DNA from: Escherichia coli O127:H6 str. E2348/69
Lineage (GTDB): Bacteria > Pseudomonadota > Gammaproteobacteria > Enterobacterales > Enterobacteriaceae
Direction: 5' to 3' (one strand)
NCBI RefSeq assembly: GCF_000026545.1
Contig: NC_011601.1
DNA length: 64,000 bases
The stretch's first letter is position 1. Every line of letters begins with the position of its first letter. Shown here piece after piece: positions 34,701 through 37,700 of the stretch. The position numbers are program-made.

Positions 34701-37700
34701 AGGTCAGATTCTGCAGGAAGGGATCAACGAGCTGGGCGCAGGTTGTTCCTGGCTGGCAGCGGCGACCTCTTACAGCACCAACAATCTGCCGATGATTCCG
34801 TTCTACATCTATTACTCGATGTTCGGCTTCCAGCGTATCGGCGATCTGTGCTGGGCGGCTGGCGACCAGCAAGCGCGTGGCTTCCTGATCGGCGGTACTT
34901 CCGGTCGTACCACCCTGAACGGTGAAGGTCTGCAGCACGAAGATGGTCACAGCCACATTCAGTCGCTGACTATCCCGAACTGTATCTCTTACGACCCGGC
35001 TTACGCTTACGAAGTTGCTGTCATCATGCATGACGGTCTGGAGCGTATGTACGGTGAAAAACAAGAGAACGTTTACTACTACATCACTACGCTGAACGAA
35101 AACTACCACATGCCGGCAATGCCGGAAGGTGCTGAGGAAGGTATCCGTAAAGGTATCTACAAACTCGAAACCATTGAAGGTAGCAAAGGTAAAGTTCAGC
35201 TGCTCGGCTCCGGTTCTATCCTGCGTCACGTCCGTGAAGCAGCTGAGATCCTGGCGAAAGATTACGGCGTAGGTTCTGACGTTTATAGCGTGACATCCTT
35301 CACCGAACTGGCGCGTGATGGTCAGGATTGTGAACGCTGGAACATGCTGCACCCGCTGGAAACTCCGCGCGTTCCGTACATCGCTCAGGTGATGAACGAC
35401 GCTCCGGCAGTGGCATCTACCGACTATATGAAACTGTTCGCTGAGCAGGTCCGTACTTACGTACCGGCTGACGACTACCGCGTACTGGGTACTGATGGCT
35501 TCGGTCGTTCCGACAGCCGTGAGAACCTGCGTCACCACTTCGAAGTTGATGCTTCTTATGTCGTGGTTGCGGCGCTGGGCGAACTGGCTAAACGTGGCGA
35601 AATCGATAAGAAAGTGGTTGCTGACGCAATCGCCAAATTCAACATCGATGCAGATAAAGTTAACCCGCGTCTGGCGTAAGAGGTAAAAGAATAATGGCTA
35701 TCGAAATCAAAGTACCGGACATCGGGGCTGATGAAGTTGAAATCACCGAGATCCTGGTCAAAGTGGGCGACAAAGTTGAAGCCGAACAGTCGCTGATCAC
35801 CGTAGAAGGCGACAAAGCCTCTATGGAAGTTCCGTCTCCGCAGGCGGGTATCGTTAAAGAGATCAAAGTCTCTGTTGGCGATAAAACCCAGACCGGCGCA
35901 CTGATTATGATTTTCGATTCCGCCGACGGTGCAGCTGACGCTGCACCTGCTCAGGCAGAAGAGAAGAAAGAAGCAGCTCCGGCAGCAGCACCAGCGGCTG
36001 CCGCGGCAAAAGACGTTAACGTTCCGGATATCGGCAGCGACGAAGTTGAAGTGACCGAAATCCTGGTGAAAGTTGGCGATAAAGTTGAAGCTGAACAGTC
36101 GCTGATCACCGTAGAAGGCGACAAGGCTTCTATGGAAGTTCCGGCTCCGTTTGCAGGCACCGTGAAAGAGATCAAAGTGACCGTGGGTGACAAAGTGTCT
36201 ACCGGCTCGCTGATTATGGTCTTCGAAGTCGCGGGTGAAGCAGGCGCGGCAGCTCCGGCGGCTAAACAGGAAGCAGCTCCGGCAGCGGCCCCTGCACCAG
36301 CTGCTGGCGTGAAAGAAGTTAACGTTCCGGATATCGGCGGTGACGAAGTTGAAGTGACCGAAGTGATGGTGAAAGTGGGCGACAAAGTTGCCGCTGAACA
36401 GTCACTGATCACCGTAGAAGGCGATAAAGCTTCTATGGAAGTTCCGGCTCCGTTTGCAGGCGTCGTGAAGGAACTGAAAGTCAACGTTGGCGATAAAGTG
36501 AAAACTGGCTCGCTGATTATGATCTTCGAAGTTGAAGGCGCAGCGCCTGCGGCAGCTCCTGCGAAACAGGAAGCGGCAGCGCCGGCTCCGGCAGCAAAAG
36601 CTGAAGCTCCAGCAGCAGCTCCGGCTGCGAAAGCCGAAGGCAAATCTGAATTTGCTGAAAACGACGCTTACGTTCACGCGACTCCGCTGATCCGCCGTCT
36701 GGCACGCGAGTTTGGCGTTAACCTGGCGAAAGTGAAGGGCACTGGCCGTAAAGGTCGTATCCTGCGCGAAGACGTTCAGGCTTACGTGAAAGAAGCTATC
36801 AAACGTGCAGAAGCGGCTCCGGCGGCGACTGGCGGCGGTATCCCAGGCATGCTGCCGTGGCCGAAGGTGGACTTCAGCAAGTTTGGTGAAATCGAAGAAG
36901 TGGAACTGGGCCGTATCCAGAAAATTTCTGGTGCGAACCTGAGCCGTAACTGGGTGATGATCCCGCATGTTACTCACTTCGACAAAACCGATATCACCGA
37001 GCTGGAAGCGTTCCGTAAACAGCAGAACGAAGAAGCGGCGAAACGTAAGCTGGATGTGAAGATCACCCCGGTTGTCTTCATCATGAAAGCGGTTGCTGCA
37101 GCTCTTGAGCAGATGCCTCGCTTCAACAGTTCGTTGTCGGAAGACGGTCAGCGTCTGACCCTGAAGAAATACATCAACATCGGTGTGGCGGTGGATACCC
37201 CGAACGGTCTGGTTGTTCCGGTATTCAAAGACGTCAACAAGAAAGGCATCATCGAGCTGTCTCGCGAGCTGATGACTATTTCTAAGAAAGCGCGTGACGG
37301 TAAGCTGACTGCGGGCGAAATGCAGGGCGGTTGCTTCACCATCTCCAGCATCGGCGGCCTGGGTACTACCCACTTCGCGCCGATTGTGAACGCGCCGGAA
37401 GTGGCTATCCTCGGCGTTTCCAAGTCCGCGATGGAGCCGGTGTGGAATGGTAAAGAGTTCGTGCCGCGTCTGATGCTGCCGATTTCTCTCTCCTTCGACC
37501 ACCGCGTGATCGACGGTGCTGATGGTGCCCGTTTCATTACCATCATTAACAACACGCTGTCTGACATTCGCCGTCTGGTGATGTAAGTAAAAGAGCCGGC
37601 CCAACGGCCGGCTTTTTTCTGGTAATCTCATGAATGTATTGAGGTTATTAGCGAATAGACAAATCGGTTGCCGTTTGTTGTTTAAAAATTGTTAACAATT

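What the first reader, a model, noticed from the sequence alone, without database searches (positions are those of the whole stretch)
35694..36650. Triplicated lipoyl-domain repeats in aceF at the DNA level
There are three ~300-bp units with long identical stretches (for example gaacagtcgctgatcaccgtagaaggcgacaa) encoding the lipoyl domains and Ala/Pro linkers. This is a known substrate for recombinational loss or gain of domains, so the domain number should be confirmed as three in this assembly.
Basis: seen in the sequence. Interest (0 to 1): 0.15.

Follow-up and report, generated by a model that had tools for sequence, protein, structure and literature searches.

The report
Three lipoyl-domain repeats in aceF
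This is the textbook threefold repeat at the start of the E. coli aceF gene, which encodes the three lipoic-acid-carrying 'swinging arm' domains of pyruvate dehydrogenase; the window has the normal three copies, and rare strains with two or four copies suggest the repeat does recombine.

Summary
Window 35694-37586 (+) is aceF, 100% identical to E. coli E2348/69. It sits in the pdhR-aceE-aceF-lpd operon.

Codons 1-319 (35694-36650) form three tandem units of 309, 303 and 345 nt. The units are 72-80% identical at the DNA level. Each encodes a lipoyl domain with a DKA lipoyl-lysine (K41, K144, K245) and an Ala/Pro linker.

The quoted 32-mer occurs in units 1 and 2 only; unit 3 has two mismatches. 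The longest exact repeat is 33 nt, against at most 12 nt in shuffles.

A flank-spacing test on complete E. coli genomes gave:
- 5,411 of 5,423 with the three-unit spacing;
- 12 shortened in frame (-300 to -309 nt, or -192 nt);
- none with four units.

A larger protein collection does hold 39 distinct four-domain AceF sequences. Several deletion junctions and the mapped duplication junctions lie in or next to the 32- and 33-nt identity tracts, as expected from unequal crossing-over.

Across Enterobacterales, 62 of 69 species have three domains. lip2 and lip3 evolve in concert; lip1 does not.

This has been known biology since 1983-85, so interest is low.

The parts
35694..37586 (+). aceF coding sequence (630 aa plus stop): the E2p dihydrolipoyllysine-residue acetyltransferase of the pyruvate dehydrogenase complex
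   Evidence: ORF. NCBIfam NF008814 scores 1099.9 bits (cutoff 722) and TIGR01348 scores 1039 bits. 100% identical over 1893 nt to the aceF of E. coli E2348/69, NZ_CP059840.2. Matches PDB 7b9k chain A over residues 1-630 at 1320 bits.
35700..35921 (+). lip1: outermost lipoyl domain core (aa 3-76); lipoyl-lysine K41 codon at 35814-35816
   Evidence: One of three Pfam PF00364 stretches. DKA motif at aa 40-42. The A. vinelandii lipoyl domain structure 1iyu aligns to aa 5-80.
35922..36008 (+). Ala/Pro-rich linker 1 (aa 77-105)
   Evidence: Translation [31 protein letters not shown]. Contains the 17-nt tract 35970-35986, which repeats at 36270-36286.
36009..36230 (+). lip2: middle lipoyl domain core (aa 106-179); lipoyl-lysine K144 codon at 36123-36125
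   Evidence: Best Pfam PF00364 stretch, aa 107-176. DKA motif at aa 143-145.
36231..36311 (+). Ala/Pro-rich linker 2 (aa 180-206)
   Evidence: Translation [27 protein letters not shown].
36312..36533 (+). lip3: innermost lipoyl domain core (aa 207-280); lipoyl-lysine K245 codon at 36426-36428
   Evidence: Pfam PF00364. DKA motif at aa 244-246. The NMR structure 1qjo of the E. coli innermost lipoyl domain aligns to aa 206-284.
36534..36671 (+). Ala/Pro-rich linker 3 (aa 281-326), longer than linkers 1 and 2
   Evidence: Translation [39 protein letters not shown].... Internal 33-nt sub-repeats are reported as family D2.
35784..35815 (+).
   Evidence: Exact repeat. The +309 nt duplication junction of the four-domain allele L093 maps exactly here. 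The -309 nt deletion junction of strain 01_3327 maps immediately next to it, at 35817-35834.
36093..36124 (+). 32-nt exact identity tract, copy in lip2
36126..36158 (+). 33-nt exact identity tract, copy in lip2 (the longest exact repeat); its partner is 36429-36461 in lip3
   Evidence: The -303 nt deletion junctions of strains C2, C4, Rb-50 and VTB97379v map within 36102-36158. The +303 nt duplication junctions of L090-L092 map exactly to this tract.
36429..36461 (+). 33-nt exact identity tract, copy in lip3
36672..36779 (+). Peripheral-subunit (E1/E3) binding domain, aa 327-362; not repeated
   Evidence: Pfam PF02817, E=1.9e-16. PDB 4qoy_E and 8oqj align here.
36888..37580 (+). Catalytic acetyltransferase core domain, aa 399-629, with the DHRVIDG active-site motif; not repeated
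   Evidence: Pfam PF00198, E=2.4e-80. PDB 4n72 aligns to aa 382-630. The motif [13 protein letters not shown] is visible in the translation.

Best explanation
The region is the 5' third of aceF. It encodes three tandem lipoyl domains (lip1, lip2, lip3), each followed by a flexible Ala/Pro-rich linker. After them come the non-repeated subunit-binding domain and the catalytic domain of the E2p core of the pyruvate dehydrogenase complex.

Function, from established knowledge of 2-oxoacid dehydrogenase complexes (not tested here). Each domain carries one lipoyl-lysine, here K41, K144 and K245, in a DKA turn. It acts as a swinging domain that carries acetyl groups and reducing equivalents between the E1p, E2p and E3 active sites.

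DNA level, partly shown and partly inferred. The three units descend from tandem duplication and remain 72-80% identical. They hold identity tracts of 32 and 33 nt, about the minimum length for efficient RecA-dependent exchange (roughly 23-27 bp; my own knowledge, Shen & Huang 1986).

I infer that unequal homologous exchange or replication slippage between these tracts occasionally removes or adds one whole in-frame unit. This gives two- or four-domain alleles carrying a hybrid domain.

I also infer that repeated exchange or gene conversion keeps lip2 and lip3 alike within a genome. Selection on complex performance would then keep three domains as the near-universal state.

This window carries the ordinary three-domain allele of E. 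coli E2348/69.
For: Identity
- NCBIfam equivalog well above its cutoff.
- Pfam finds 3x Biotin_lipoyl + E3_binding + 2-oxoacid_dh.
- 100% DNA identity to the annotated aceF of E2348/69, with the neighbours pdhR, aceE, lpdA, yacH and acnB.
- Full-length match to PDB 7b9k; lip3 matches 1qjo.

Repeat
-, as set out in the observation check.

Copy number
- The flank-only queries exploit the tool's piece-joining distance.
- At a threshold of 800 nt, only 12 of 5,423 genomes join.
- At a threshold of 1,100 nt, all 5,423 join.
- So 5,411 genomes have a gap between 800 and 1,100 nt (three units are 957 nt here), 12 are shorter and none is one unit longer.

Loss alleles
- All are in frame.
- -303 nt: a lip2/lip3 hybrid, junction within 36102-36158.
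- -309 nt: a lip1/lip2 hybrid, junction at 35817-35834.
- -300 nt: junction in the 17-nt linker tract 35970-35986.
- -306 nt: junction in the linker, 4-nt microhomology only.
- -192 nt: joins the two VGDKV half-domain motifs.
- The four -303 alleles differ from each other at 16-30 sites in 1,854 nt, so they arose independently.

Gain alleles
- 39 distinct AceF sequences with four DKA motifs (723-738 aa) are among the top 120 hits. They come from E. coli, Salmonella and Citrobacter, some on contigs of 4.5-4.7 Mb.
- The DNA junctions of two of them fall exactly in the 33-mer (L090-L092, +303) and the 32-mer (L093, +309).

Homogenisation
- At identical residues, lip2 and lip3 use the same codon 78% of the time. 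The operon's codon usage predicts 51% (P<5e-5).
- Across 60 Enterobacterales genomes, within-genome lip2-lip3 distance is 0.131 and cross-genome lip2-lip3 distance is 0.175. Within is smaller in 58 of 60 genomes.
- It is also below the orthologous distances of 0.170 and 0.151.
- The lip1 pairs, which act as a control, give 0.254 against 0.265.
- lip2 is closer to the orthologous lip2 than to lip3 of another genus in only 53% of pairs. lip1 is always closest to lip1 orthologues.

Literature
- E. coli E2p has three lipoyl domains that are 73% identical (PMC8421416).
- One domain suffices for activity (Guest et al. 1985, as described in PMC5013485).
- Lowering lipoyl domain content adversely affects growth rate and yield (title of Dave et al. 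1995, cited in PMC10579247).
Against: - No reads are available. Neither this window's copy number nor that of the variant genomes can be verified directly.
- Some 2- or 4-domain records could be assembly errors. A 454-era paper explicitly reports an aceF misassembly (PMC3045373).
- No four-domain allele was found among 5,423 complete genomes. The gain alleles examined at the DNA level come from draft or metagenome assemblies.
- The '0 of 5,423' result rests on the tool's stated joining rule. That rule was validated only by the behaviour seen.
- Two junctions (the -306 nt deletion and the +309 nt allele L094) map to only 4-5 nt of shared sequence. Not all events need long homology.
- Junction intervals were mapped against the E2348/69 allele, not each strain's own parent, so they are approximate.
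- The concerted-evolution test is only partly controlled for shared codon bias (GC3 matched to within 0.04, with lip1 as an internal control). The species are not phylogenetically independent.
- Lipoylation and catalysis are inferred from homology.
Confidence: 0.95

Rival explanations
1. The repeat number in this window is an assembly artefact: the true gene has two or four units and the assembler expanded or collapsed the array.
For: aceF has caused misassembly in 454 data (PMC3045373). Records with 2 and 4 domains do exist.
Against: The window is 100% identical over all 1,893 nt to the complete E2348/69 chromosome. 5,411 of 5,423 complete E. coli genomes share the three-unit spacing. The units are only 72-80% identical, and the longest exact repeat is 33 nt. 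That is far shorter than any modern read, so each unit is uniquely placeable. The reading frame and all three DKA motifs are intact.
Confidence: 0.02
2. The DNA-level similarity of the units is only a passive result of protein conservation plus the strong codon bias of a highly expressed gene. There is no ongoing recombination or conversion between units.
For: The operon's codon usage alone predicts about 50% codon identity at identical residues. The identity tracts encode the most conserved peptide, [17 protein letters not shown]. For the lip1 pairs the excess over expectation is small (0.66-0.69 against 0.52), and within-genome distances nearly equal cross-genome distances (0.254 against 0.265).
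Against: lip2-lip3 codon identity is 0.78 against 0.51 expected, P<5e-5. Within-genome lip2-lip3 distance is below cross-genome distance in 58 of 60 genomes, and below the distances between true orthologues. There is no positional signal between lip2 and lip3 across genera (53%). Hybrid-domain deletion and duplication alleles with junctions in the identity tracts are direct recombination products.
Confidence: 0.08
3. The repeats carry a second function on the other strand or at the RNA level, such as an antisense gene or a structured RNA, and that function maintains the nucleotide identity.
For: Long antisense ORFs of 230 and 409 aa overlap the region.
Against: Neither antisense ORF matches any Pfam family. 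Their Ala/Gly/Ser/Thr-rich composition is what the reverse complement of Ala/Pro codons gives. No Rfam family reaches its gathering score within aceF. No inverted repeats occur in the region. The sense frame explains every feature.
Confidence: 0.01

Closest known systems
E. coli K-12 AceF (E2p, dihydrolipoyllysine-residue acetyltransferase), sequenced by Stephens et al. 1983
   Same: Same gene. [quoted passage not shown] Other E. coli alleles listed are 98-99.3% identical at the DNA level. The PDB chain 7b9k aligns over residues 1-630.
   Different: Only allelic substitutions. For example, this E2348/69 allele has T at residue 164 (KVTVGDKV), where several other E. coli alleles have N.
Engineered E. 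coli E2p chains with altered lipoyl-domain number (Guest et al. 1985; Dave et al. 1995; constructs with up to nine domains, Machado et al. 1992, the last from my own memory)
   Same: The natural 2-domain alleles found here have the same architecture as the laboratory deletions: hybrid lip1/2 or lip2/3 domains, or loss of lip2 through the linkers, all in frame. The literature states that one domain suffices for activity (PMC5013485) and that fewer domains lower growth rate and yield (title cited in PMC10579247).
   Different: The alleles found here occur in sequenced isolates, not in constructs. Their phenotypes are untested.
E2 chains with other domain numbers: E. coli SucB (one lipoyl domain), the single-domain E2 of a Bacillus soil isolate (PMC10579247), and the reduced AceF of Serratia symbiotica (1-2 domains)
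   Same: Same modular plan of lipoyl domain(s), linker, subunit-binding domain and catalytic core. The literature gives one to three lipoyl domains per chain (PMC6270654). Domain loss in endosymbionts is reported for S. symbiotica (PMC5013485) and is seen here in Ca. Symbiopectobacterium, which has one domain.
   Different: Domain number. The four-domain natural alleles found here exceed the one-to-three range quoted in that review.

Membership tests
AceF / E2p acetyltransferase of the pyruvate dehydrogenase complex (NCBIfam NF008814, TIGR01348) | Full-length match to the curated equivalog model above its cutoff | tested here: met
   NF008814 scores 1099.9 bits against a cutoff of 722, covering residues 1-630. 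TIGR01348 scores 1039.1 against 552.1.
AceF / E2p acetyltransferase of the pyruvate dehydrogenase complex (NCBIfam NF008814, TIGR01348) | N-terminal lipoyl domain(s) with the lipoyl-lysine in a DKA turn | tested here: met
   Three PF00364 stretches. DKA at residues 40-42, 143-145 and 244-246. lip3 matches the solved structure 1qjo.
AceF / E2p acetyltransferase of the pyruvate dehydrogenase complex (NCBIfam NF008814, TIGR01348) | Peripheral-subunit-binding domain and C-terminal 2-oxoacid dehydrogenase acyltransferase domain with the DHRxxDG catalytic motif | tested here: met
   PF02817 at residues 327-362 and PF00198 at 399-629. The motif DHRVIDG is in the translation. PDB 4n72 aligns to 382-630.
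AceF / E2p acetyltransferase of the pyruvate dehydrogenase complex (NCBIfam NF008814, TIGR01348) | Operon context with the E1p and E3 genes | tested here: met
   pdhR 32058-32855, aceE 33016-35679, aceF 35694-37586, lpd to 39218. The identical RefSeq region carries the same annotation.
AceF / E2p acetyltransferase of the pyruvate dehydrogenase complex (NCBIfam NF008814, TIGR01348) | Lipoylation of the three lysines and acetyltransferase activity | not testable with these tools
   Inferred from near-identity to the biochemically and structurally characterised E. coli protein (PMC8421416).
Tandem intragenic repeat subject to unequal homologous recombination | Direct, head-to-tail units whose length is a multiple of three | tested here: met
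   Spacings of 309 and 303 nt, with no inverted repeats.
Tandem intragenic repeat subject to unequal homologous recombination | Uninterrupted identity tracts long enough for homologous exchange (about 23-27 bp in E. coli; my own knowledge, Shen & Huang 1986) | tested here: met
   32 nt between lip1 and lip2, and 33 nt between lip2 and lip3. Shuffles give at most 12 nt.
Tandem intragenic repeat subject to unequal homologous recombination | Both reciprocal products (one unit lost, one unit gained) exist, with junctions in the identity tracts | tested here: met
   Deletions of -303 and -309 nt and duplications of +303 and +309 nt map to or beside the 33- and 32-nt tracts. Caveat: these are assemblies, not reads.
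Concerted evolution of paralogous repeats | Paralogues within a genome are more alike than the same paralogue pair taken across genomes | tested here: met
   lip2-lip3: 0.131 within against 0.175 across, in 58 of 60 genomes. Positional signal is only 53%.
Concerted evolution of paralogous repeats | The same holds for all units of the array | tested here: not met
   The lip1 pairs give 0.254-0.260 within against 0.265-0.268 across. lip1 is closest to lip1 orthologues in 62 of 62 genomes. Homogenisation is confined to lip2 and lip3.

The most novel reading that the evidence does not exclude
The lipoyl-domain array of aceF is a naturally copy-number-variable locus across Enterobacterales.

- Two-, three- and four-domain alleles arise recurrently by unequal exchange, often at identity tracts of about 30 nt.
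- lip2 and lip3 have lost positional identity through this turnover, while lip1 stays a stable orthologue.
- Selection holds the number at three in free-living species.
- Four-domain alleles would exceed the one-to-three range given in reviews.

This reading requires that the variant records are real alleles and not assembly errors.
Probability: 0.6. Interest if true: 0.3.

Novelty: already known. Interest (0 to 1): 0.12.

Why it matters
For this window it matters little. It is the standard three-domain aceF of E. coli E2348/69, correctly assembled as far as sequence comparison can tell.

More generally, the repeat is a classic model for two questions. One is why multienzyme complexes carry several swinging-arm domains. 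The other is how intragenic tandem repeats evolve.

The by-products of this check give a small population-level complement to the engineered-domain studies of the 1980s-90s:
- rare natural 2- and 4-domain alleles, several with junctions at the longest identity tracts;
- homogenisation of lip2 and lip3, but not of lip1.

There is also a practical point for annotators. In-frame domain-number variants of aceF may be real, yet PGAP marked one as a pseudogene.

Tried and rejected
1. Synthetic recombinant-junction queries. I built these to search the E. coli genomes, then dropped them. The search tool joins neighbouring pieces, so a normal genome would also cover such a query at about 100%. I replaced them with the flank-only spacing test.

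2. Two records both labelled Buttiauxella agrestis ATCC 33320, with 2 and 3 domains. I hoped they would reveal assembly collapse. They differ at 27 of 1,000 upstream bases and one is flagged UNVERIFIED_ORG, so they are different organisms and tell us nothing.

3. Literature searches for reports of natural aceF domain-number variants or evolved duplications. These found only the classical engineered work, the Serratia symbiotica domain loss and a 454 misassembly note. No population survey turned up in the held library.

4. Antisense ORFs 35951-36643 and 36402-37631. They have no Pfam match and I rejected them as genes.

5. Rfam scan of 31500-39500. It found nothing inside aceF.

6. Structure prediction of the chimeric -192 nt and +38 aa alleles. 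I considered this but did not run it, as it is peripheral to the finding.
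Full report
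**What is there**

Window 35694-37586 (+) is a 630-codon ORF. Several lines identify it as aceF.
- It scores 1099.9 bits against the NCBIfam equivalog for the pyruvate dehydrogenase E2 acetyltransferase, whose cutoff is 722.
- Pfam finds three Biotin_lipoyl stretches, one E3_binding domain (residues 327-362) and one 2-oxoacid_dh catalytic domain (399-629).
- The neighbours are a GntR/FCD regulator (pdhR), the E1p gene aceE upstream and the E3 gene lpd downstream.
- The DNA is 100% identical over all 1,893 nt to aceF of E. coli E2348/69. That record annotates ampE-aroP-pdhR-aceE-aceF-lpdA-yacH-acnB around it.
- The protein aligns end to end with PDB 7b9k. [quoted passage not shown]

**The observation**

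- The repeat finder gives a 300-nt family with three copies spaced 309 and 303 nt apart.
- Tandem Repeats Finder gives period 303, 80% matches and score 999.
- A codon alignment puts the units at 35694-36002, 36003-36305 and 36306-36650.
- DNA identity is 74% (U1-U2), 72% (U1-U3) and 80% (U2-U3). Protein identity is 76%, 68% and 79%.
- A self dot-plot gives 80-86% identity over 200 nt at offsets 303, 309 and 612. The maximum in 100 dinucleotide-preserving shuffles was 42.5%.
- The longest exact repeat is 33 nt, against at most 12 nt in shuffles.

The lip3 copy has two mismatches.

Each unit has a DKA motif, which places the lipoyl-lysines at K41, K144 and K245.

**Is the number three?**

No reads are available, so I compared with public genomes.
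- With a 600-nt query (threshold 800 nt), normal genomes, whose gap is 957 nt, should not join. Only 12 of 5,423 matching genomes joined.
- With a 1,200-nt query (threshold 1,100 nt), normal genomes should join, and a genome with an extra unit (gap about 1,260 nt) should not. All 5,423 joined.
- So 5,411 genomes have the three-unit spacing, 12 are shorter and none is longer.

The units are only 72-80% identical and share no exact stretch above 33 nt. Collapse by a modern assembler is therefore unlikely. The window's three domains are the norm.

**The shortened alleles**

All translate in frame. Deletion sizes come from the match spans, and junctions are mapped against the window.

| Strains | Change | Product and junction |
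|---|---|---|
| C2, C4, Rb-50, VTB97379v | -303 nt | lip2/lip3 hybrid; junction within 36102-36158 |
| 01_3327 (03_3013 by equal span) | -309 nt | lip1/lip2 hybrid; junction at 35817-35834, next to the 32-mer |
| FDAARGOS_1283 | -300 nt | lip2 lost; junction in the 17-nt linker tract 35970-35986 |
| DSM 103263 | -306 nt | lip2 lost; junction in the linker, 4-nt microhomology only |
| 463 (439, 446, 447 by equal span) | -192 nt | C-terminal VGDKV of lip2 joined to N-terminal VGDKV of lip3; chimeric domain with two DKA motifs |

The four -303 alleles differ from one another at 16-30 of 1,854 positions. They are therefore independent events in different lineages.

**Gain alleles**

None of the complete genomes has four units, but a search of the large protein collection found gains.
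- The top of the hit list holds 39 distinct AceF sequences of 723-738 aa, each with four DKA motifs.
- They come from E. coli, Salmonella and Citrobacter. Two of the Salmonella sequences sit on contigs of 4.5-4.7 Mb.
- There are two main architectures: lip1-lip2-(lip3/2 hybrid)-lip3, and lip1-(hybrid of lip1 and lip2)-lip2-lip3.
- At the DNA level, the +303 junction of three contigs encoding P0002 lies exactly in the 33-nt tract 36126-36158/36429-36461.
- A second P0001 contig, L094, maps to only 5 nt of shared sequence when compared with this window's allele.

Both reciprocal products of unequal exchange at the two longest identity tracts therefore exist in public data.

Caveat: these are assemblies. 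One paper reports aceF as a source of misassembly in 454 data (PMC3045373).

**Evolution of the repeat**

At residues identical between units, the same codon is used more often than the operon's codon usage predicts.
- lip1-lip2: 66% observed against 52% expected.
- lip1-lip3: 69% against 52%.
- lip2-lip3: 78% against 51% (P<5e-5).

I fetched 80 Enterobacterales loci using the non-repeated C-terminal part of AceF as the query. Of the 69 with a complete N-terminus, 62 have three domains, 6 have two and 1 has one. The single-domain case is the symbiont Ca. Symbiopectobacterium. The two-domain species keep lip1 plus one lip2/3-like domain.

I then compared DNA distances among 60 genomes, using genome pairs matched for GC3 and well diverged in the catalytic domain.

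| Comparison | Mean DNA distance |
|---|---|
| lip2-lip3, same genome | 0.131 |
| lip2-lip3, across genomes | 0.175 |
| lip2-lip2 orthologues | 0.170 |
| lip3-lip3 orthologues | 0.151 |
| lip1-lip2, same genome / across genomes | 0.254 / 0.265 |
| lip1-lip3, same genome / across genomes | 0.260 / 0.268 |

- Within-genome lip2-lip3 distance is smaller than the cross-genome distance in 58 of 60 genomes.
- lip2 is closer to the lip2 than to the lip3 of another genus in only 53% of pairs.
- lip1 is always closest to its own orthologues, in 62 of 62 genomes.

I infer that lip2 and lip3 are homogenised by gene conversion or by cycles of unequal exchange, and that lip1 is not.

**Mechanism**

- Shown: the architecture, the repeat, the variant alleles and their junctions, and the homogenisation pattern.
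- From established knowledge: each lipoyl domain is lipoylated on the DKA lysine and shuttles intermediates between the E1p, E2p and E3 sites on flexible Ala/Pro linkers (PMC8421416, PMC6270654).
- From established knowledge: one domain suffices for activity (Guest et al. 1985, as summarised in PMC5013485), but fewer domains lower growth rate and yield (title of Dave et al. 1995, cited in PMC10579247).
- Inferred: exchange occurs at the 32- and 33-nt tracts because they are about the minimum length for efficient RecA-dependent recombination (my own knowledge). Selection on complex performance keeps three domains nearly fixed.

**Other strand and RNA**

The long antisense ORFs have no Pfam match. 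No Rfam family matches within aceF. There are no inverted repeats in the region.

**Verdict**

The finding is correct and already known; the aceF sequence dates from 1983. The window is ordinary.

The population-level by-products are modestly useful but not surprising. Interest is 0.12.

Noticed in passing
window 32900-33013 (-): Full-length Rfam match to the sRNA family tp2 (RF02030; 103.4 bits against a gathering score of 50). It lies on the minus strand in the pdhR-aceE intergenic region, antisense to the operon transcript.
   Followed up: no
window 37594-37620 (+): A GC-rich hairpin AGCCGGCC-CAAC-GGCCGGCT followed by TTTTTTC sits just after the aceF stop codon and looks like an intrinsic terminator between aceF and lpd. 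The scan listed the same hairpin on the minus strand only. A promoter-like site at 37681-37709 precedes lpd.
   Followed up: partly
L005 (NZ_CP183105.1, E. coli strain 463); by equal span also strains 439, 446 and 447 (H40-H42): Four sputum isolates from Taiwan with nearly identical genome sizes carry an in-frame 192-nt deletion. It fuses the C-terminal-half VGDKV of lip2 to the N-terminal-half VGDKV of lip3. The product is a chimeric domain with two DKA motifs, with the lysines 37 residues apart. Whether it folds or is lipoylated is unknown.
   Followed up: partly
P0037 (668 aa, E. coli, NCBI/UniRef): An AceF with a 38-residue duplication inside lip2, giving DKA lysines at 144 and 182. This looks like an exchange between the two half-domain VGDKV motifs of one domain. 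The 14-nt exact repeat GTTGGCGATAAAGT at 36072/36486 reflects the same internal pseudo-symmetry of the lipoyl domain.
   Followed up: no
L004 (NZ_CP074961.1, E. coli 01_3327): PGAP annotates the two-domain aceF as a pseudogene ('incomplete; missing N-terminus'). However, the frame is intact from the normal ATG and encodes a lip1/2 hybrid plus lip3. Automated annotation can mislabel in-frame domain-number variants.
   Followed up: partly
P0033 and P0036 (Salmonella enterica, including serovar Pullorum; contigs of 4.47 and 4.68 Mb): Four-lipoyl-domain AceF sequences of 723 and 725 aa sit on chromosome-sized Salmonella contigs. Four-domain alleles may therefore be established in some lineages. 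Reviews quote one to three domains per E2 chain (PMC6270654).
   Followed up: no
H51 (E. coli A25) and H58 (ECNB21-M121): The flank-to-flank span is 6 and 9 nt longer than the usual 2,157 nt. This indicates small in-frame length polymorphisms, probably in the Ala/Pro linkers.
   Followed up: no
window 39289-41142 (-), yacH: The DUF3300 protein YacH has its own tandem protein repeats near the C-terminus. A motif like SPEQRQ..REKMQTNPQNQQRREAARQRIQSA recurs several times, and there is a His/Asp-rich stretch DDDDHDHHHHDDDDYHHHD (translation).
   Followed up: no
H30 (NZ_CP107281.1, E. coli JCL301, laboratory strain): Only the last 96 nt of aceF match, and the remnant lies next to ampE. This is consistent with an engineered deletion of the region. 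It accounts for one of the few complete genomes that lack a full aceF.
   Followed up: no
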